From Escherichia phage dw-ec, in the sequence record OL739525.1: a stretch of DNA of 64,000 nt; one strand, 5' to 3'. Position 1 is the stretch's first letter. The number at the start of each line of letters is the position of its first letter. Positions 173 to 25,470 of this stretch are shown here, in pieces. The notes under the pieces are model-generated. The model saw only the letters and a list, made by a program, of their open reading frames with translations, made no database searches and was not told the origin of the DNA. The position numbers were made by a program, and so were the translations under genes.

Positions 173-433
173 TTACTCCGCAATTTGAGCCATGAGATCA
201 CGCAGTTCGGTAAAACCGCCTACGTATGTTACCTCCCCGTTCACTTCAGACAGAATTTGTGGAAATGTGCGTGGAGGAACTCCGGTAAGATCAACAACTG
301 TTTTAGTCATTGATTCTAAATCATAGTCTTGATCAAGACTTAAATATTCAAACTGTTTATTGCGCATGGTTAATAGTTGTTTTGACATTTCGCAAAATTG
401 ACAGTTAGGTTTACCAAAAATTACAAATTCCAT
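173..433 (-). CDS. glutaredoxin (NrdC/Grx-like thiol-disulfide redox protein)
   Basis: CQFC active-site motif near N-terminus, TFPQI...GG glutaredoxin signature, 86 aa; sits in the ribonucleotide reductase neighbourhood. Confidence 0.75.
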   Translation of the reverse strand: MEFVIFGKPNCQFCEMSKQLLTMRNKQFEYLSLDQDYDLESMTKTVVDLTGVPPRTFPQILSEVNGEVTYVGGFTELRDLMAQIAE

Positions 434-1275
434 TACCTCTCCTTATTAAGTAATACTGCTAAAGACTGTTCAATACCTTTATTTAAATCTGATTTTGTAA
501 GATAGTGACTGGTTACTAGTTGTGACTTCACCGGACGTGCTGCTGGAGCATTATAGGTTGAAGCTGATACCGCCGATATCTTAACAGGTTCTGGCATCTG
601 TGTCAAGATCTTTTCCGCAAACTCCGCCCAAGAAATAAAATGGCTTCCTGCAAAATGGTAAGTCTTAACAGACCTTGACCAACCTGTTTTTAATACTTCA
701 AAAATAGCTTCTGCTAAATCTGGAGCATATGTTGGGCAAGAGAACTGATCAGCAACAACAATAAAATCACGTTGTCCATCATTATAGCGAGACAACATGG
801 TTTTTAGAAAGTTATTTCCAAATTCGCTATATACCGAGGCTGTTCGAATAATATATGCATTTGGGTTAACTCCTCGCACCATTTTTTCACCAAGTTCTTT
901 CGTATACCCATAATTGTTTATTGGGTTAGGTGTAGTATCTTCAAAAATAGGATGAGAATAATTAAAAATATAATCTGTAGAAATATGCACAAAATCAATT
1001 TTAAGTTTGCTGCACACTGCCGCAATATTTGCAGGTCCATATGCATTAACAGCCAAAGCAGTAGCAAAATCATGTTCTGCTTTATCTACAGCCGTATAAG
1101 CAGCGCAGTTAATAACACCGTCTACATAATCTTCAACAATAGCGTTTCGCACAGCTTCAAAATTTGTAATATCTACACGTTCTTTAGGATAAATTAAAGA
1201 TACATTTGAAGGAACCACTTTACGTAAAGCTTGTCCCAGTTGTCCATTACCACCCAATACCAGATATATTAGCAT
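433..1275 (-). CDS. rmlD: dTDP-4-dehydrorhamnose reductase-like (RmlD family)
   Basis: N-terminal GGNGQLG Rossmann motif; NCAAYTAVDKAE, ISTDYIF, YGYTKELGE, GNNFLKTML, DQFSCPT match RmlD landmark blocks; 280 aa. Confidence 0.7.
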   Translation of the reverse strand: MLIYLVLGGNGQLGQALRKVVPSNVSLIYPKERVDITNFEAVRNAIVEDYVDGVINCAAYTAVDKAEHDFATALAVNAYGPANIAAVCSKLKIDFVHISTDYIFNYSHPIFEDTTPNPINNYGYTKELGEKMVRGVNPNAYIIRTASVYSEFGNNFLKTMLSRYNDGQRDFIVVADQFSCPTYAPDLAEAIFEVLKTGWSRSVKTYHFAGSHFISWAEFAEKILTQMPEPVKISAVSASTYNAPAARPVKSQLVTSHYLTKSDLNKGIEQSLAVLLNKER

Positions 1276-1835
1276 ACACCCTCACTACGCAACTGTTGAA
1301 AAGATTTAGCCATTGCATCTTTTGTTGATAAGATAGGTTTAAAATCTTCATCAAAAATCATATCAAAGCCCCAATCGATCCCTATATCAGGATCATCCCA
1401 ACGTAAACTTTGTTCGCTAGAAGGGTCGTATGGAGTTGTGCATTTGTATTCAAAGATAGCATCCATACTCAAAACTATAAAACCATGTGCCAAACCAGGT
1501 GGAAGCCAAAATTGCGTATGGTGTCGTGCACGAAGAACAACACCGTCCCAAGCACCGTAAGTTGGACTATCTTTACGTAAATCTACAGCGAAATCCAATA
1601 CTTCTCCACTTACACAACGAACAAGCTTACCTTGCGGGTTGTTTGTTTGGAAGTGCATTCCTCGCAAAACACCGAAGTTTGATTTAGACATGTTATCTTG
1701 AACGAAAGTTTGTCTACCAATAATATCTTCGTATTTTTGTTCATTGTATGTTTCTAAAAAGAAACCACGATCATCTTTATAAACGTCTGGTTTGATAATT
1801 ACCGCACCTTCAATTTTTGTTTTTTCTACTTTCAT
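1269..1835 (-). CDS. rmlC: dTDP-4-dehydrorhamnose 3,5-epimerase-like (RmlC cupin)
   Basis: DDRGFFLETY...QDNMSKSNFGVLRGMHFQ matches RmlC signature; 188 aa; 7-nt overlap with rmlD-like gene. Confidence 0.7.
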   Translation of the reverse strand: MKVEKTKIEGAVIIKPDVYKDDRGFFLETYNEQKYEDIIGRQTFVQDNMSKSNFGVLRGMHFQTNNPQGKLVRCVSGEVLDFAVDLRKDSPTYGAWDGVVLRARHHTQFWLPPGLAHGFIVLSMDAIFEYKCTTPYDPSSEQSLRWDDPDIGIDWGFDMIFDEDFKPILSTKDAMAKSFQQLRSEGVC

Positions 1836-16941: not shown

Positions 16942-17874
16942 TTATCCTCCAAAGAAGTTTTCGATTTTTTCACGTCGCTCTTGCTGATTTAAAGCAGCCC
17001 ATTGAGTCTTCGTAAAATTATTTCGAATCCATTCTAACAAAGCGTAATATTCTTCGTCAACAATTTGTTTGGCATTTTTTGGATTATCCCAAATCAGATC
17101 CCACTTTTTATCTCCACCACGCATAAGAAACTTCTTAGTAAGATAGTGTGGTGATTTAATTTTTAAAAGTAAGTTGAACGGATAGTTTGTTTCACGAACT
17201 ACAAACCCTTCGTGTTTACAATGTTTAGACATTTCAACAACATCTGAAAACTTAACCATTGGATGAACTTCAGGACGCTTAAATTTGGTGACAGAAGCAA
17301 TTCCATCAAGAGCACCTTCAGGTAACATAAAACTTGTCCCATCAGGATTTTGAATTCTGGCACCAATTAAGTATGCACCTGGTTCTTCTTCGACAATATG
17401 TGGATCAGAAGGATCACAGATTTCAAACAGGAAAGTTGCTTTTGCACTCTCTGCCCATTTGATGAAATGTTCTATGTCATCGCACTCTGAAACAATATGA
17501 TTCTTTGCAATACTTGCAAAATCTGATTCAAGGCTTCCTGTTGTCGATACAATAAGTTGACCTTTATATACACCTACAGAGGCCATAAAACCATTTACTT
17601 TACGAACCACATCTACAAGTTCATCCGCTGGTAGATCTGTGCCATTCTCAAAACGATTAAAAATCTTAGTGAAAGGCCAAATAACAACATTGTCATCAGC
17701 ATCAACAACGATTCCGCGACATTCTAGAAGACGAGAATCAATGCTCCATAAATTATCCCAGAAAACTTTGTTCTTATACTTAAGAACAGATAGACCAGAA
17801 TACTCTCCTTCTTTATATGTTTTCTTATGAACTAAACCTTTTTCAACCAAATCGTCGCAATTAAATTTAGTCAC
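16942..17874 (-). CDS. RNA ligase (Rnl family nucleotidyltransferase)
   Basis: VVRKVNGFMASVGVY contains the KxNG lysine-adenylate motif; 310 aa. Confidence 0.65.
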   Translation of the reverse strand: MTKFNCDDLVEKGLVHKKTYKEGEYSGLSVLKYKNKVFWDNLWSIDSRLLECRGIVVDADDNVVIWPFTKIFNRFENGTDLPADELVDVVRKVNGFMASVGVYKGQLIVSTTGSLESDFASIAKNHIVSECDDIEHFIKWAESAKATFLFEICDPSDPHIVEEEPGAYLIGARIQNPDGTSFMLPEGALDGIASVTKFKRPEVHPMVKFSDVVEMSKHCKHEGFVVRETNYPFNLLLKIKSPHYLTKKFLMRGGDKKWDLIWDNPKNAKQIVDEEYYALLEWIRNNFTKTQWAALNQQERREKIENFFGG

Positions 17875-17875
17875 A

Positions 17876-18427
17876 TTACTCTCCTTTGATTATTTTGTGA
17901 TGGTCTACAGTCACGATATCTCGTTTACTCATCATAGAAATTATCTCATCAAAATGCAAGATTTTTCCGTGTGCATCCCAACCCACATCTAACATTTTAC
18001 CATAAGCTTCATCAGGGAAAGATCCGTGGGAATGCCCGTGTAGCATGATTGATCCACGACCTTGTTTATTCCAGGAGGCAATAGGGTAATGACTTAAGAC
18101 GAAGAACAGCTTCTGGTATTTCACTTCGTCATAATACACCACTTCGCCATACTCTGCAAGCACTTCTCGGTGCTTGCTGTAATCATGATTCCCAACAAGA
18201 TAAGTGATATCCCCTTGCAGACGGGAAGCAATCTTACGGGTATCTTCTTCAGTCCCGAAACAGAAGTCGCCCAAATGCCACATCTTAACACCAGGGGTAG
18301 TAGCACATTTGTTCCATGCTTCGATCAAGGCTTCTGTCATGTGGTCCATATCTTCCCACGGACGATATTCAGGAGCAAACTCTCGAATGCGTTTATGCAT
18401 AAAATGCAAATCGCTTGTAATAAACAT
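17876..18427 (-). CDS. calcineurin-like metallophosphoesterase
   Basis: SDLHFMH, LGDFCFG, GNHDY, HGHSHG metallophosphatase motifs; 183 aa. Confidence 0.7.
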   Translation of the reverse strand: MFITSDLHFMHKRIREFAPEYRPWEDMDHMTEALIEAWNKCATTPGVKMWHLGDFCFGTEEDTRKIASRLQGDITYLVGNHDYSKHREVLAEYGEVVYYDEVKYQKLFFVLSHYPIASWNKQGRGSIMLHGHSHGSFPDEAYGKMLDVGWDAHGKILHFDEIISMMSKRDIVTVDHHKIIKGE

Positions 18428-22796: not shown

Positions 22797-22803
22797 ATAA
22801 CTA

Positions 22804-22833
22804 TTGACAAACGTATCCTTCATATGTTAGGAT
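22804..22833 (+). promoter_or_regulatory. sigma70-like promoter P1 of tRNA array (CTATTGACAA ... TGtTAGGAT) with 10-bp inverted repeat
   Basis: TTGACA, 18-bp spacer, extended -10; AACGTATCCT / AGGATACGTT inverted repeat spans spacer and -10. Confidence 0.5.
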
Positions 22834-23042
22834 ACGTTCATCAAGTGTGGTAACAGGGTCGTTGACTTTTGTTAAGAGGGGCTTGCACTGCGGTAGTGTT
22901 AGAGACTACTTCTTCAGAGGTTAGCTACCAAAGAGGAAAAGGAATAGTCTCGGCTCAAGAACTTTTACGCTGAAAGTTGGGCTTGGTCTTAGAGAATGTA
23001 GCGGTTCTCTACAATCGTCAGCGTCTCTGTTACCACATTTAT

Positions 23043-23117
23043 GGCCCTGTAGCTCAATGGGAGAGCTGTCGGCTCATAACCGATAGGTAGCTGGATCGAA
23101 ACCAGCCAGGGCCACCA
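23043..23117 (+). tRNA. tRNA with CAT anticodon (Met or lysidine-type Ile2)
   Basis: Cloverleaf folds by hand: GGCCCTG/CAGGGCC acceptor, anticodon loop CTCATAA, CCA encoded. Confidence 0.75.
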
Positions 23118-23119
23118 AC

Positions 23120-23194
23120 GTCTTTATGGTGTAATGGATAGCACAGGAGTCTTCTAAACTCTTAGTCAAGGTTCGATTCCTTGTAAAGACACCA
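23120..23194 (+). tRNA. tRNA-Arg (TCT)
   Basis: 7-bp acceptor, anticodon loop CTTCTAA, T-arm CAAGG-TTCGATT-CCTTG, CCA encoded. Confidence 0.8.
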
Positions 23195-23390
23195 GAACAT
23201 TTTAACATGAATTAGCTCAAGTGATTTGAACCCACTACTGATCATGGTGGCAGAGAATGAGGCAAGTATGTCAGACATTATAAACAAAGGCCACGGTTAT
23301 ATTAGAAGACATAAATGCTCGAAGAGCACCGTTCGTTGAGAACGGGGGTTGGTGGAGTCACCATTCATGGTAAAATGTTTTAAAAAACTA

Positions 23391-23420
23391 TTGACAACTA
23401 ACATTATTTTATGTTAGATT
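23391..23420 (+). promoter_or_regulatory. sigma70-like promoter P2 inside tRNA array (CTATTGACAA ... TGtTAGATT)
   Basis: TTGACA, 18-bp spacer, extended -10; CTAACAT/ATGTTAG inverted repeat. Confidence 0.5.
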
Positions 23421-23428
23421 ATAAGTAT

Positions 23429-23519
23429 GGAAGGGCAAATCGATGTGGCGACGAAAACGGTCTTGAAAACCGCCGAGCTTGAAAGAGCCTTGGGAGTTCG
23501 ACTCTCCCTCCTTCCGCCA
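23429..23519 (+). tRNA. tRNA-Ser (TGA), class II
   Basis: Anticodon loop CTTGAAA, long variable arm, T-arm GGGAG-TTCGACT-CTCCC, CCA encoded. Confidence 0.8.
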
Positions 23520-23524
23520 GATTA

Positions 23525-23610
23525 GGTAGATTGGTGAAATGGTAGCCACAACAGTTTGCTAAACTGTAGTCGGAAACGGCGTGTAGGTTCGAGTCCTACA
23601 TCTACCGCCA
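23525..23610 (+). tRNA. tRNA-Ser (GCT), class II
   Basis: GGTAGAT/ATCTACC acceptor, anticodon loop TTGCTAA, long variable arm, CCA encoded. Confidence 0.8.
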
Positions 23611-23740
23611 AGTTCTTTTTAATATAGCTTACTTTAATAGAGTAAACTTTCGGCAGATGGCCTCCACCATCTTACCGATAACTCATAGTTAGTGGTGTGA
23701 ACACTGGCTATTTTAAAAAGAATTTAAATATTAGTATTTA

Positions 23741-23828
23741 GGTGAGTTAATTCCGTAGGGGTAGCGGGGCAGACTGTAAATCTGTTATCATTGCGATTCG
23801 GGTGGTTCGACTCCATCACTCACCACCA
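23741..23828 (+). tRNA. tRNA-Tyr (GTA), class II
   Basis: GGTGAGT/ACTCACC acceptor, anticodon loop CTGTAAA, long variable arm, CCA encoded. Confidence 0.8.
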
Positions 23829-23834
23829 AATTAA

Positions 23835-23920
23835 GATGAGTTGGCTGAATGGTTTAAGCGGCGGACTGTTAATCCGTGTTCGAAAGAACGATATAGGTTC
23901 AAATCCTATACTCATCGCCA
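23835..23920 (+). tRNA. class II tRNA with apparent GTT (Asn-type) anticodon; isotype uncertain
   Basis: Good acceptor and T-arm, 15-nt variable arm, anticodon stem GCGGA/TCCGT with loop CTGTTAA; class II architecture with an Asn anticodon is non-canonical. Confidence 0.55.
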
Positions 23921-23927
23921 GAATTAT

Positions 23928-24004
23928 GGACTTGTAGAGTTAAGGTAAACCCCCAGTCGCCAAGAGGCTTCTGGAATTGCAGGTATCGAATCCTGCCGAG
24001 TCCC
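23928..24004 (+). pseudogene. degenerate tRNA-like element
   Basis: Acceptor pairing GGACTTG/CGAGTCC and T-arm-like GCAGG-TATCGAAT-CCTGC (8-nt loop), but no canonical anticodon arm could be folded. Confidence 0.35.
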
Positions 24005-24010
24005 AGTTTT

Positions 24011-24085
24011 GCTCCTATAGTATAATGGCTATTACAACGGTTTTGTAATCCGTGGATCTCTGTTCGATTCAGAGTGGGAGCACCA
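24011..24085 (+). tRNA. tRNA-Thr (TGT)
   Basis: GCTCCTA/TGGGAGC acceptor, anticodon loop TTTGTAA (one non-WC pair closing the stem), CCA encoded. Confidence 0.7.
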
Positions 24086-24358
24086 ACATAACATTAAGAG
24101 CACTGTGATTGATCGTCGTATCCTGTGCACAAGGTCTGCTCGAAAGACAGTGTTCTTAGTATTGTGTTGATCACACAAAGAGTTACCTGAAACTTGACCG
24201 GAGTAGGGTTGGATGGGGCAAAAGAAGAAGCGGCTCTCCCATCGACAGCAACGAAGAATAATATTTGACTTTGGTTTTGTATTATTTTAAGTTAGCTTAC
24301 CGAACGTAGGGCTAGTCACCCAATGGGATACTCGTCACTGTCCCACTCAATAAAACTA

Positions 24359-24388
24359 TTGACAACCAATAGTAAAATGTAGTATAGT
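24359..24388 (+). promoter_or_regulatory. sigma70-like promoter P3 inside tRNA array (CTATTGACAA-18-TATAGT)
   Basis: Consensus hexamers about 10 nt upstream of tRNA-Gly. Confidence 0.5.
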
Positions 24389-24399
24389 AAAGATGTAGG

Positions 24400-24473
24400 G
24401 CGTTCTTGGTGTAGCGGTAGCATTCCGTCCTTCCAAGTCGGCGGCACGAGTTCGATCCTCGTAGAACGCTCCA
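24400..24473 (+). tRNA. tRNA-Gly (TCC)
   Basis: Anticodon loop CTTCCAA, T-arm ACGAG-TTCGATC-CTCGT, CCA encoded. Confidence 0.75.
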
Positions 24474-24571
24474 AATTATTTAATAAAGGGTTGCCAGAAA
24501 ACTTTCTCTTTTACTCATGGTTTTCTCCTTCTCTCACACCTCTTCTGGTTGCCCTTCATTAAATGATTTAT

Positions 24572-24647
24572 TGGTTTGTAGTGTAGTCCGGTAGCACACG
24601 ACACTTTGACTGTCGTAGGTTTGGTTCAAATCCAGACAGACCAGCCA
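24572..24647 (+). tRNA. tRNA-Gln (TTG)
   Basis: TGGTTTG/CAGACCA acceptor, anticodon stem CGACA/TGTCG with loop CTTTGAC, CCA encoded. Confidence 0.75.
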
Positions 24648-24652
24648 TATAA

Positions 24653-24729
24653 CGGAATTTAGCTCAGTTTGGTAGAGCATACGCTTTGGGAGCGTAGGGT
24701 CGCAGGTTCGAATCCTGCAATTCCGACCA
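24653..24729 (+). tRNA. tRNA-Pro (TGG)
   Basis: CGGAATT/AATTCCG acceptor, anticodon loop TTTGGGA, T-arm GCAGG-TTCGAAT-CCTGC, CCA encoded. Confidence 0.85.
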
Positions 24730-24735
24730 ATCAAA

Positions 24736-24809
24736 TGTTTCGTAGTTCAATGGTAGAACCCACGACTGATAATCGTGAGACACAAGTTCGATTCTTGTCG
24801 AAACAACCA
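24736..24809 (+). tRNA. tRNA-Ile (GAT)
   Basis: TGTTTCG/CGAAACA acceptor, anticodon stem CACGA/TCGTG with loop CTGATAA, CCA encoded. Confidence 0.8.
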
Positions 24810-24811
24810 GT

Positions 24812-24881
24812 TTCCCGTTAGACTTACAGGATAAGAGTTCCACAACTTATTGTGATGCTGGTTCGAATCCAGCACGGGATA
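24812..24881 (+). pseudogene. tRNA-like element with aberrant anticodon arm
   Basis: Canonical T-arm GCTGG-TTCGAAT-CCAGC and acceptor (1-72 mismatch), but anticodon region folds only as a 4-bp stem with 6-nt loop ACTTAT; 70 nt, no CCA. Confidence 0.4.
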
Positions 24882-24887
24882 CATAAT

Positions 24888-24966
24888 AGCGGGATAGAGG
24901 AGTCTGGTCGTCCTCGCCAGTTTCATATGCTGGAGATCATCGGTTCAAATCCGATTCCCGCCTCCA
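24888..24966 (+). tRNA. tRNA-Met (CAT), second CAT-anticodon tRNA
   Basis: Anticodon stem CCAGT/GCTGG with loop TTCATAT, T-arm ATCGG-TTCAAAT-CCGAT, CCA encoded; A1-C72 mismatch at top of acceptor. Confidence 0.65.
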
Positions 24967-25081
24967 AATATCGCTTGCCAGCGGTATCTTTGAAGACCTT
25001 GCCTGGTTCCTTCTAAGATGGAGGGGTGCGACTCCTTAACGCACAATTATAATAAAGCATTTCAAATTAACAGTATTTATT

Positions 25082-25104
25082 AGCCTCCTTATTGGAGGCT
25101 TTTT
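25082..25104 (+). terminator. intrinsic terminator closing the tRNA array
   Basis: AGCCTCC-loop-GGAGGCT hairpin followed by TTTTT. Confidence 0.6.
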
Positions 25105-25123
25105 GCTATCTATTGAATAAAAC

Positions 25124-25152
25124 TTGACTTATTATTTTTTATATGTTAAGAT
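25124..25152 (+). promoter_or_regulatory. sigma70-like promoter (TTGACT-17-TGtTAAGAT)
   Basis: Hexamers upstream of the 25174 gene; shares TATGTTA motif with array promoters. Confidence 0.45.
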
Positions 25153-25173
25153 AAAGTTTAGGAGGATTTTATT

Positions 25174-25470
25174 ATGCCTAAACTAAAACGTGGTCGTGGA
25201 AGACCAACAGCCGAAATGCAACAGATCTACGCAATGGATGCGGCGCAAGCAAGTGTAAAAGAATTATTTGCAGAGCATTATTTAGAAGCTATGCGATATA
25301 TTGTTGAACTTGTTAATGATAAGGATGCAGCAAAACCTCTCCGCTTCCAAGCAGCTAAAGCTATTAAAGAGCAAGTAGAAGAATGGTTAGAAGAACATTA
25401 TGAAGCTATGGAAGAAGAAACCCCTGCCGTGCAGAATACAGATGACGTTCCTAAAAAGATCGTAATCTAA
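25174..25470 (+). CDS. hypothetical DNA-binding protein (KRGRGRP motif); small-terminase candidate
   Basis: N-terminal basic AT-hook-like KRGRGRPT; AGGAGG RBS; upstream of terminase region. Confidence 0.35.
   Translation: MPKLKRGRGRPTAEMQQIYAMDAAQASVKELFAEHYLEAMRYIVELVNDKDAAKPLRFQAAKAIKEQVEEWLEEHYEAMEEETPAVQNTDDVPKKIVI

What the first reader, a model, noticed from the sequence alone, without database searches (positions are those of the whole stretch)
24812..24881. tRNA-like element with 6-nt anticodon loop
Between tRNA-Ile and the second CAT tRNA lies a 70-nt element with a perfect T-arm (GCTGG-TTCGAAT-CCAGC) and acceptor pairing apart from a T-T at position 1-72. Its anticodon region CACA-ACTTAT-TGTG can only form a 4-bp stem with a 6-nt loop (or a 5-bp stem with a tetraloop), and no CCA is encoded. 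It is either a decaying pseudo-tRNA or a tRNA-derived RNA with another role. I considered an ochre-suppressor reading (TTA) but the loop geometry does not support it.
Basis: seen in the sequence. Interest (0 to 1): 0.5.

Follow-up and report, generated by a model that had tools for sequence, protein, structure and literature searches.

The report
Disabled tRNA copy in phage tRNA operon
A 70-base gene in a coliphage tRNA operon still folds like the body of a tRNA but cannot read codons; it is most likely a decaying copy of an odd tRNA-like gene that three unrelated groups of E. coli phages share.

Summary
Window 24812-24881 (+) has a consensus T-arm, a 6-bp acceptor stem with an unpaired 1-72 position, a 5-bp hairpin with a 4-nt loop where the anticodon arm should be, a 2-nt variable region and no CCA. 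All 12 other tRNAs of the cluster encode CCA. ARAGORN and the Rfam tRNA model do not call it.

It is not an assembly error. The short loop (3-4 nt) is present in all 23 Phapecoctavirus sequences examined.

Homologues exist in four Vequintavirinae phages and in the siphovirus phiEB49, where it is annotated tRNA-Val. Across these lineages the D region and T arm are almost invariant, while the acceptor and anticodon stems change by compensatory substitutions. That pattern indicates selection on a tRNA-shaped fold. The nearest canonical tRNAs are tRNA-Arg.

Within Phapecoctavirus the element varies as much as 4-fold degenerate sites and about 8 times more than tRNA-Ile and tRNA-Gln. It also carries lineage-specific defects.

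Best reading (about 0.55): a co-transcribed, decaying pseudo-tRNA. Main rival (about 0.3): a non-decoding tRNA mimic that is still in use.

Moderate interest; a new member of a known kind.

The parts
24812..24881 (+). The tRNA-like element (70 nt), positions 1-73 in tRNA numbering
   Evidence: Sequence. It scores 100.5 bits with family model R1. ARAGORN and Rfam do not call it.
24812..24818 (+). Acceptor stem, 5' strand (TTCCCGT). T1 is unpaired against T72.
   Evidence: Pairs 2-71 to 7-66 are kept in all members. Pairs 1-72, 2-71 and 3-70 change on both sides between lineages.
24819..24840 (+). D region, TAGACTTACAGGATAAGAGTTC. It contains GG (G18 G19), A20 and a possible CTTA-CAGGA-TAAG hairpin. 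The D stem is ill defined.
   Evidence: The region is nearly invariant across three phage families: 0 of 22 differences between A7_1 and phiEB49. Neither D-stem register covaries (alignment, read by eye).
24841..24854 (+). Anticodon-arm substitute: a 5-bp stem (CACAA/TTGTG) closed by the tetraloop CTTA
   Evidence: All cells pair, and 3 of 5 pairs show changes on both sides. The loop is 3-4 nt in 23 of 23 Phapecoctavirus sequences.
24855..24856 (+). Two-nucleotide variable region (AT); canonical tRNAs have 4-5 nt or a long arm
   Evidence: The feature is shared by all family members, with 2-3 nt in phiEB49.
24857..24873 (+). T arm, GCTGG-TTCGAAT-CCAGC, matching the consensus T-loop
   Evidence: Pair 49-65 covaries: G-C, A-U and G.U.
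24874..24881 (+). Acceptor stem 3' strand (ACGGGAT) plus discriminator A, followed by CAT rather than CCA
   Evidence: The 12 other tRNAs of the cluster all have CCA directly after the discriminator.
24359..24388 (+). Sigma-70-like promoter (TTGACA-18-TATAGT, 11 of 12 matches) upstream of tRNA-Gly. Probable start of the Gly-Gln-Pro-Ile-element-Met2 transcript.
   Evidence: This is a consensus match only; transcription was not shown.
24736..24809 (+). tRNA-Ile(GAT), ending in an encoded CCA 2 nt before the element
   Evidence: 72.2 bits.
24888..24966 (+). tRNA(CAT) 'Met2', starting 6 nt after the element, with an A1.C72 mismatch
   Evidence: (50 bits).
25082..25107 (+). Intrinsic-terminator-like hairpin plus T run, the probable end of the operon

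Best explanation
The element is a pseudo-tRNA: a disabled copy of a non-canonical, tRNA-Arg-related gene that has lost the ability to decode.

Proposed sequence of events:
1. It sits inside a sigma-70-type operon (promoter near 24359, then tRNA-Gly, Gln, Pro, Ile, the element and tRNA-Met2, then a terminator near 25082), so it is co-transcribed with real tRNAs. This is inferred from consensus signals.
2. Its acceptor/T-arm minihelix and D/T elbow are intact. RNase P and the 3' trimming enzymes should therefore cut it out like a tRNA, which also frees the 3' end of tRNA-Ile and the 5' end of tRNA-Met2. This is inferred from established knowledge of RNase P substrate recognition.
3. The product cannot act as an adaptor. 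The anticodon arm is a closed 5-bp hairpin with a 3-4-nt loop, the variable region is 2 nt, position 1-72 is unpaired and no CCA is encoded. These features are shown by the sequence.
4. In Phapecoctavirus the sequence now drifts at about the neutral rate. The same gene family appears to be held by selection on the tRNA fold in a few Vequintavirinae phages and in phiEB49. These points are shown by comparison.

I put about 0.55 on the copy in this phage having no function of its own beyond being a harmless, processable spacer.
For: Not a working tRNA:
- No ARAGORN call.
- No Rfam tRNA hit at E<=10, while 12 neighbours score 36-72 bits.
- It is the only member of the cluster without an encoded CCA.
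- The loop is 3-4 nt in 23 of 23 genomes.

Relaxed constraint within Phapecoctavirus:
- In 19 genomes there are 7 segregating sites in 70 nt, against 2 in 150 nt for tRNA-Ile plus tRNA-Gln (Fisher p=0.005).
- This is indistinguishable from 4-fold degenerate sites of neighbouring genes, 20 of 140 (p=0.51).
- Nucleotide diversity (pi) is 0.032 for the element, 0.023 at 4-fold sites and 0.004-0.005 for tRNA-Ile and tRNA-Gln.
- A sample not chosen for element divergence gives the same ranking: 0.0135, 0.0163 and 0.003-0.007.
- Disruptive variants occur: G18 to A, an inserted A in the T-loop, G49 to A against C65, and 1-nt loop deletions.

Derived defects specific to this lineage, relative to the A7_1/UPEC06 and phiEB49 copies:
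- 3 substitutions in the otherwise invariant D region
- a loop 3 nt shorter
- T1.T72 or T1.C72 in place of a pair
- loss of CCA

Precedent: ARAGORN reports 'tRNA-???' genes with 6-nt anticodon loops in four other phage tRNA clusters fetched here. Degenerate tRNA copies are therefore a recurrent feature of such clusters.

Transcription unit: promoter-like and terminator-like sites bracket the Gly-to-Met2 block.
Against: The family is not plain junk.
- Homologues occur in three unrelated phage lineages, each next to a different tRNA: Ile/Met2, Tyr, and Arg(CCT). Between Phapecoctavirus and Vequintavirinae, identity (81-86%) is as high as or higher than for shared genuine tRNAs.
- Three helices are supported by covariation. 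95% of cells pair, and 7 pairs change on both sides against 2.1+-1.0 in shuffles (0 of 500); slid controls give 0-1.
- Between A7_1 and phiEB49 the D region shows 0 of 22 differences and the T arm 1 of 17, while the acceptor shows 7 of 14 and the anticodon arm 13 of 18 (p=4e-8).
- All of roughly 70 Phapecoctavirus records keep the element, although the cluster gains and loses other pieces.
- The common polymorphisms within the genus fall at unpaired positions or keep a pair (A-U to G.U). The helix-breaking variants are singletons.
- The diversity sample is small. About half of it was chosen for divergence of the element.
Confidence: 0.55

Rival explanations
1. A functional, non-decoding tRNA mimic. 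The RNA keeps the tRNA body (acceptor, elbow, T-arm) but presents a closed hairpin where the anticodon loop should be. It could then occupy proteins that recognise tRNA shape without being decoded or cut in the anticodon loop. Candidate targets are host tRNA-targeting defence nucleases and tRNA processing or modification enzymes. In short, it would be a decoy or sponge made from the tRNA operon.
For: - Fold-preserving evolution and a nearly invariant D/T elbow across three phage families.
- A patchy, horizontally transferred distribution with different neighbours in each lineage.
- Universal retention in Phapecoctavirus.
- Variation concentrated in the loop and the 3' tail.
- The phage carries a T4 Rnl1-type RNA ligase (PF09511, E=4e-15) next to a weak phosphoesterase match, as expected for a phage exposed to anticodon nucleases.
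- The literature shows that phage tRNAs are shaped by such nucleases (PMC10264068; PMC13056530).
Against: - There is no direct evidence for any target.
- Within Phapecoctavirus the element changes as fast as 4-fold degenerate sites and tolerates hits to G18, the T-loop and the T-stem.
- This copy has lost CCA and the 1-72 pair.
- No co-transferred protein partner lies next to it in the three contexts.
- The sister genus Justusliebigvirus lacks it.
Confidence: 0.25
2. A cis-acting processing module. The tRNA-shaped fold would be kept only so that RNase P cuts 1-3 nt downstream of the preceding tRNA's CCA, giving that tRNA a short trailer that is easily trimmed. The excised piece would then be discarded.
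For: - In all three lineages the element starts 1-3 nt after the encoded CCA of a genuine tRNA: Ile here, Tyr in A7_1/UPEC06, Arg in phiEB49.
- In A7_1 and phiEB49 it is the last tRNA-shaped unit before coding sequence.
- Selection on fold but not on loop sequence fits this role.
Against: - Here tRNA-Met2 follows within 78 nt and could serve tRNA-Ile equally well.
- Relatives such as Rogue1 and Justusliebigvirus process the same tRNAs without the element.
- A near-invariant 22-nt D region is more constraint than RNase P recognition should need.
Confidence: 0.1
3. A working but unusual tRNA that decodes with a non-standard anticodon loop, for example as a suppressor or frameshifter.
For: - The phiEB49 homologue has an encoded CCA, a perfect acceptor stem and a possible 7-nt loop, UUAACAA. 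ARAGORN and GenBank call it tRNA-Val(AAC).
- The A7_1 and UPEC06 copies have 17-nt arms.
Against: - In this phage the loop is 3-4 nt.
- The putative anticodons differ in every lineage: UAU, UCU and AAC. Those of A7_1/UPEC06 sit in a loop with G33 and C37 that closes into a 7-bp stem.
- The variable region is 2-3 nt.
- The Rfam tRNA model gives only 24.6 bits (below the 29-bit threshold) for phiEB49 and nothing for the others.
Confidence: 0.03
4. Not an RNA at all: a chance hairpin cluster, or part of a small protein gene. Some records annotate a hypothetical protein across this stretch, and a 59-aa minus-strand ORF spans 24747-24926.
For: - ORFs overlap the region.
- The WPEC and EP57 records annotate 'hypothetical protein' here.
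Against: - Those ORFs run through the neighbouring tRNA genes.
- Substitutions are compensatory in RNA helices.
- Conservation ends at the tRNA-like boundaries in three different contexts.
- Loop indels of 1 and 3 nt occur.
Confidence: 0.01

Closest known systems
Canonical phage tRNA-Arg (CCU/UCU), e.g. the tRNA-Arg(CCT) directly upstream of the homologue in phiEB49 and in Rogue1
   Same: - Six of the nine best canonical-tRNA matches to the family model are tRNA-Arg, at 30-40 bits.
- The D-loop motif ACAGGAUAA, including A20, is shared, as are the T arm and the 3' acceptor strand.
- The UPEC06 copy still has UCU at the centre of its loop.
   Different: - No 7-nt anticodon loop with U33 and R37.
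- A 2-nt variable region.
- T instead of A at position 14.
- A degenerate D stem.
- In this phage, no CCA and no 1-72 pair.
- Part of the comparison set was fetched with a pattern that favours this D-loop, so descent from tRNA-Arg is likely rather than proven.
Degenerate tRNA genes of phage tRNA clusters (ARAGORN 'tRNA-???' with 2-base anticodons; tRNAscan-SE 'pseudo')
   Same: - The setting is the same: a tRNA-shaped gene with a shortened anticodon loop inside a large phage tRNA cluster.
- Four such genes occur in unrelated clusters fetched here: L028 8659-8738, L039 7178-7248, L040 5286-5355 and L047 13432-13521.
   Different: - This element is too aberrant even for those callers.
- Unlike a typical one-off pseudogene, it has homologues with covarying stems in three phage families.
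T4 RNAC and RNAD, small stable RNAs encoded in the T4 tRNA gene region
   Same: They are small non-tRNA RNAs transcribed from a coliphage tRNA region, with unknown biological roles (PMC3014915).
   Different: From my own knowledge they are longer (about 120-140 nt).
tRNA-mimic modules of non-coding RNAs (bacterial YrlA Y-RNA-like, Rfam RF02553; mascRNA, RF01684)
   Same: They share the concept of a retained acceptor, T-arm and D-arm with the anticodon arm replaced (PMC4201824, listed).
   Different: - Neither model matches the element. The only YrlA hit, at 22.8 bits against a 69-bit threshold, spans two real tRNAs at 24674-24793.
- No Ro60/Rsr gene turned up among the 18 window ORFs scanned against Pfam; the rest of the window was not searched.

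Membership tests
Canonical (decoding) tRNA, Rfam RF00005 | Score at or above the family gathering threshold (29 bits), or a call by a tRNA finder | tested here: not met
   There is no RF00005 match at E<=10 over 22800-25300, while 12 neighbours score 36-72 bits. ARAGORN makes no call. tRNAscan-SE-based annotations of relatives skip it.
Canonical (decoding) tRNA, Rfam RF00005 | A 5-bp anticodon stem closing a 7-nt loop with U33 and a purine at position 37 | tested here: not met
   The arm is CACAA-CTTA-TTGTG, 5 bp plus 4 nt, and the loop is 3-4 nt in 23 of 23 Phapecoctavirus sequences.
Canonical (decoding) tRNA, Rfam RF00005 | A 7-bp acceptor stem and a 3' CCA, either encoded or added | tested here: inconclusive
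   Six pairs are present, plus T1.T72 (T.C in some relatives). CAT follows the discriminator, whereas all 12 neighbours encode CCA. Post-transcriptional CCA addition cannot be tested here.
Canonical (decoding) tRNA, Rfam RF00005 | A T arm with the T-loop consensus, plus G18 G19 in the D loop to form the elbow | tested here: met
   GCTGG-TTCGAAT-CCAGC and ...ACAGGAUAA... are both present and nearly invariant across the family.
Canonical (decoding) tRNA, Rfam RF00005 | A 3-4-bp D stem and a variable region of 4-5 nt (or a long arm) | tested here: not met
   The variable region is 2 nt. The two possible D-stem registers each lose pairs in some members and neither covaries (alignments, read by eye).
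Canonical (decoding) tRNA, Rfam RF00005 | Aminoacylation and use on the ribosome | not testable with these tools
   This needs acid-gel or periodate assays on RNA from infected cells.
Pseudo-tRNA (decaying tRNA gene copy) | Recognisable descent from a tRNA gene | tested here: met
   The element has a cloverleaf-like fold. The nearest non-family matches of model R1 are genuine tRNAs, mostly tRNA-Arg, at 30-40 bits.
Pseudo-tRNA (decaying tRNA gene copy) | Loss of features needed for function | tested here: met
   It has a closed short loop, a 2-nt variable region, no CCA and a 1-72 mismatch.
Pseudo-tRNA (decaying tRNA gene copy) | Evolution at about the neutral rate, faster than functional paralogues | tested here: met
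   There are 7 segregating sites in 70 nt, against 2 in 150 nt for tRNA-Ile plus tRNA-Gln (p=0.005) and 20 in 140 at 4-fold degenerate sites (p=0.51). The sample is small and partly biased.
Pseudo-tRNA (decaying tRNA gene copy) | No selection on the fold | tested here: not met
   Across the three phage lineages the stems covary and the elbow is nearly invariant. Within Phapecoctavirus the test has too little power.
tRNA-mimic non-coding RNA (YrlA RF02553, mascRNA RF01684, tmRNA) | A match to the family covariance model or to the ARAGORN tmRNA search | tested here: not met
   None of these models matches 24812-24881.
tRNA-mimic non-coding RNA (generic: works through its tRNA shape) | A stable processed product and a binding partner or phenotype | not testable with these tools
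   This needs small-RNA sequencing, pull-downs and deletion mutants.

The most novel reading that the evidence does not exclude
The element and its homologues in A7_1/UPEC06-type Vequintavirinae and in phiEB49 would form a mobile family of 'anticodon-less' tRNA decoys. Each is a tRNA body with a sealed anticodon hairpin, produced from phage tRNA operons. It would soak up host tRNA-directed defence nucleases, or other proteins that bind tRNA shape, and so protect the real tRNA pool during infection.
Probability: 0.2. Interest if true: 0.8.

Novelty: new member of a known kind. Interest (0 to 1): 0.35.

Why it matters
If it is a relic, it documents birth-and-death turnover of tRNA genes in coliphage tRNA clusters. 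It also explains a constant 78-nt 'gap' that annotation pipelines leave empty in about 70 Phapecoctavirus genomes.

If the family is functional, it would be a tRNA-shaped RNA that is selected for its body rather than its anticodon and that moves between unrelated phages. That bears on the current question of how phages cope with bacterial defences that target tRNA. It could be tested directly with a clean deletion and small-RNA sequencing.

Tried and rejected
**Searches for more family members**
- IMG/VR, pattern TTAGNCTTANAGGATAAGA: only one Phapecoctavirus contig, the phiEB49 contig and chance matches in coding DNA.
- IMG/VR, looser pattern AGGATAAG...GGTTCGAATCC: ordinary tRNAs, mostly Arg and Glu, and no new member.
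- L033 looked like a tRNA-like with a triloop. It has a poor T stem, no neighbouring tRNAs and no ARAGORN call, so I dropped it as chance.
- Metagenome and GTDB genome scans: three more Phapecoctavirus-type contigs only.
- No homologue in 5,426 E. coli genomes.

**Other leads**
- Flanking ORFs of the three contexts share no protein, so there is no co-transferred partner gene next to the element.
- The extra 88 nt between tRNA-Gln and tRNA-Pro in many relatives is unrelated sequence. The 'second tRNA-Pro' of vB_EcoM_01 contains N bases and looks like an assembly artefact.
- Neither D-stem register is supported. I also considered GGAU/AUCC and CTTA/TAAG hairpins; the latter is invariant and therefore uninformative.
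- Initiator identity of the neighbouring tRNA-Met2: it has a 1-72 mismatch but lacks the three G-C pairs in the anticodon stem. I did not pursue this further.
- Literature searches found no description of this element.

Full report
**What is there**

The window comes from a Phapecoctavirus (Stephanstirmvirinae) coliphage. Positions 24400-25100 are identical to Escherichia phage anhysbys, MN850648. Other parts of the window match other members of the genus better.

The finding lies in a plus-strand tRNA cluster at 23043-24966. ARAGORN finds 10 tRNAs there. The Rfam tRNA models add two more, at 23429-23515 and 23741-23825. Neither tool reports anything at 24812-24881, even at E<=10.

- acceptor TTCCCGT/ACGGGAT, with T1 opposite T72
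- a consensus T arm, GCTGG-TTCGAAT-CCAGC
- a D region with GG
- CACAA-CTTA-TTGTG where the anticodon arm should be
- only AT as the variable region
- discriminator A followed by CAT

All 12 genuine tRNAs of the cluster carry CCA directly after the discriminator. The strand folds into a cloverleaf at -20.8 kcal/mol, with z = -3.05 against shuffles. A promoter-like site (TTGACA-18-TATAGT, 24359-24388) and a strong terminator-like hairpin (25082-25107) bracket tRNA-Gly, Gln, Pro, Ile, the element and tRNA-Met2. The element is therefore most likely co-transcribed with real tRNAs.

**It is not an error, and it is not unique to this phage**

About 70 Phapecoctavirus records contain the element at 96-100% identity, always between tRNA-Ile and tRNA-Met2 and never annotated. 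In 23 sequences read here, the arm is always a 5-bp stem with a 3-4-nt loop.

More distant homologues exist in two other groups:
- Four Vequintavirinae phages (A7_1, A73, W70 and UPEC06; 81-86% identity). There the element directly follows tRNA-Tyr, is unannotated, and is not called by ARAGORN or Rfam.
- The 47-kb siphovirus phiEB49 (79% identity). There it directly follows tRNA-Arg(CCT), has a perfect acceptor stem and an encoded CCA, and is annotated tRNA-Val(AAC). It reaches only 24.6 bits with the Rfam tRNA model, below the 29-bit threshold.

Pattern scans of IMG/VR, metagenomes and GTDB genomes, and a BLAST of 5,426 E. coli genomes, added only more Phapecoctavirus-type contigs. The sister genus Justusliebigvirus has an identical tRNA-Met2 with tRNA-Leu upstream and no element. 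The family is therefore small, patchy, and found next to different tRNAs in each lineage.

**Anatomy across the family**

A covariance model built from 13 distinct sequences scores members at 76-100 bits and everything else at 41 bits or less. Most of the best canonical matches are tRNA-Arg (CCU, UCU, GCG), including the tRNA-Arg next to the phiEB49 copy.

The D-loop motif ACAGGAUAA (with A20), the T arm and the 3' acceptor strand resemble those tRNA-Arg genes. UPEC06 keeps UCU in the middle of its loop. Descent from a tRNA-Arg-type gene is therefore likely. Part of the comparison set was fetched with a pattern biased to this D loop, so this is not proven.

On the model-guided alignment:
- 95% of cells pair.
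- 7 of 17 pairs show changes on both sides, against 2.1+-1.0 in shuffles (0 of 500) and 0-1 in slid controls. The changes are spread over the acceptor stem, anticodon stem and T stem.
- The alignment is fitted to the model, which favours the structure somewhat.
- The D stem is not supported in either register.

All members share the non-canonical traits: a 2-3-nt variable region, T at position 14 and a weak D stem. These traits were therefore already present in the common ancestor.

The anticodon arm differs by lineage:
- A7_1: CACAAC-GUAUC-GUUGUG
- UPEC06: CGCAAC-GUCUC-GUUGUG. Both this and the A7_1 arm are predicted to close into 7 bp plus a triloop.
- phiEB49: CGUAC-UUAACAA-GUA(U)CG
- Phapecoctavirus: the 14- or 15-nt version

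No 'anticodon' is conserved.

**Is it under selection?**

The two timescales give different answers.

Between lineages the answer is yes. A7_1 and phiEB49 differ at 7 of 14 acceptor positions and 13 of 18 anticodon-arm positions. They differ at 0 of 22 D-region positions and 1 of 17 T-arm positions (Fisher p=4e-8). This is the signature of a constrained tRNA elbow with covarying stems.

Between Phapecoctavirus and Vequintavirinae, the element is as well conserved as the shared genuine tRNAs: 81-86% against 75% for tRNA-Pro and 84-86% for tRNA-Tyr. The spacers do not align at all.

Within Phapecoctavirus the picture is one of relaxation:
- In 19 genomes the element has 7 segregating sites in 70 nt (pi 0.032).
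- tRNA-Ile and tRNA-Gln together have 2 in 150 nt (pi 0.004-0.005; p=0.005).
- 4-fold degenerate sites of the adjacent genes have 20 in 140 (pi 0.023; p=0.51).
- The neighbouring spacers have 13 in 305 nt (p=0.07).
- A sub-sample not chosen for element divergence ranks the same way.

Singleton variants hit G18, the T loop and the T stem, and the loop carries 1-nt deletions. The Phapecoctavirus copy also carries derived states absent from the other two lineages. These are three substitutions in the otherwise invariant D region, a loop shortened by 3 nt, the unpaired 1-72 position (T.T or T.C) and the loss of CCA.

Against pure neutrality, the common polymorphisms sit at unpaired positions or convert A-U to G.U, and no genome has lost the element. 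The numbers are too small for a significant test.

**Interpretation**

The element is certainly tRNA-derived and certainly not a decoding tRNA in this phage.

I commit to the reading that it is a pseudo-tRNA: a decaying copy of a non-canonical, probably Arg-derived, tRNA-like gene. It is co-transcribed in the Gly-to-Met2 operon. Because its acceptor/T-arm minihelix and elbow are intact, it should be excised by RNase P and the 3' trimming enzymes like its neighbours. That step is inferred from what is known of RNase P substrates and is not shown here. Confidence is about 0.55.

The main rival, at about 0.25, is that the family acts through its tRNA body as a non-decoding mimic, for example as a decoy for tRNA-directed host nucleases. 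Three things fit this:
- the cross-family constraint
- the mobile, patchy distribution
- the phage's own T4 Rnl1-type RNA ligase at 16942-17874, with a weak phosphoesterase match next to it

The literature also describes phage tRNAs shaped by anticodon nucleases (PMC10264068; PMC13056530). There is no direct evidence for this rival, and the within-genus drift argues against strong constraint here.

A purely cis-acting role as an RNase P 'punctuation' unit gets about 0.1. It would explain why the element always starts 1-3 nt after the CCA of a real tRNA. It seems unnecessary here, because tRNA-Met2 follows. A working unusual tRNA (about 0.03) and a protein-coding or chance origin (about 0.01) are effectively excluded.

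**Comparison with known things, and novelty**

Degenerate tRNA-shaped genes are a known accompaniment of phage tRNA clusters. One further contig, L055, carries a tRNA-like with a truncated anticodon arm just upstream of a tRNA-Met.

T4 transcribes two small RNAs of unknown role, RNAC and RNAD, from its tRNA region (PMC3014915). Known tRNA-mimic families in Rfam (YrlA, mascRNA) do not match the element.

I therefore file it as a new, unannotated member of a known kind. Its unusual aspect is a homologous family with a conserved elbow and covarying stems in three phage families. Interest is moderate (0.35). The decoy reading, if true, would deserve much more.

Noticed in passing
window 23429-23515 and 23741-23825 (+): ARAGORN misses two tRNA genes that Rfam detects. 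The first is Ser(TGA)-like, scoring 35.7 bits with the tRNA-Sec model. The second is Tyr(GTA)-like, scoring 39 bits with the tRNA model. Relatives annotate them as tRNA-Ser-TGA and tRNA-Tyr-GTA (ASO2A), or as 'tRNA-Pseudo-GTA' (Mt1B1_P17). Both encode CCA.
   Followed up: partly
window 24888-24966 (+): The second tRNA(CAT), 'Met2', has an A1.C72 mismatch (C1.C72 in Justusliebigvirus PD06). phAPEC8 and Mt1B1_P17 label it tRNA-Pseudo-CAT. Even so, it is 97-100% identical in phages of E. coli, Serratia and Salmonella. It also shows a compensatory T-stem change (C to T at 24941 with G to A at 24953) within Phapecoctavirus, so it looks functional. It lacks the three G-C pairs of an initiator anticodon stem.
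   Followed up: partly
window 24967-25081 (+): A 115-nt tail lies between tRNA-Met2 and the terminator. It contains several hairpins and varies less than 4-fold degenerate sites (pi 0.004-0.009 against 0.016-0.023). It may be a small RNA or a processing element at the end of the tRNA operon. It has no Rfam match above chance.
   Followed up: partly
window 23610-23727 (+): A 118-nt non-tRNA block after tRNA-Ser(GCT) is 79-80% identical to sequence in the Vequintavirinae phages A7_1 and UPEC06, although the surrounding spacers do not align. Its nature is unknown.
   Followed up: no
window 16942-17874 (-) and 17876-18427 (-): A 310-aa T4 Rnl1-type RNA ligase (PF09511, E=4e-15) sits next to a 183-aa ORF with a weak calcineurin-like phosphoesterase match (22.6 bits, below the 27-bit cut-off). 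This looks like a heal-and-seal tRNA repair pair, about 5 kb upstream of the tRNA cluster.
   Followed up: partly
window 22804-22833, 23391-23420 and 24359-24388 (+): Three promoter-like sites share TTGACA and an 18-nt spacer, and each lies just upstream of a block of tRNAs. This suggests the cluster is made of at least three transcription units.
   Followed up: no
L002 2249-2341, L013 1771-1865 (relatives; insertion point between window 24647 and 24653): Many Phapecoctavirus genomes carry an extra 88 nt of unrelated, non-tRNA sequence between tRNA-Gln and tRNA-Pro. tRNA-Pro, Thr, Asn and Gly also occur as clearly different alleles among genomes, so the cluster is a recombination mosaic.
   Followed up: partly
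L005 1589-1655 (UPEC06), directly after its copy of the element: This is another tRNA-shaped sequence that ARAGORN does not call (19 bits with the tRNA-Sec model). It has a 5-bp stem and a 9-nt loop, CCUCCAAAA, containing CCA.
   Followed up: no
L055 10275-10341; L028 8659-8738; L039 7178-7248; L040 5286-5355; L047 13432-13521: Other phage contigs hold tRNA-like genes with truncated or 6-nt anticodon loops. ARAGORN labels four of them 'tRNA-???'. It makes no call for the L055 element, which scores 40.8 bits with the family model and lies 13 nt upstream of a tRNA-Met. Such elements may be a broader class worth a systematic census.
   Followed up: partly
window 433-1835 (-): The phage encodes dTDP-sugar enzymes: RmlD-like (PF04321, E=2e-73) and dTDP-4-dehydrorhamnose 3,5-epimerase (PF00908, E=1e-66).
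   Followed up: no
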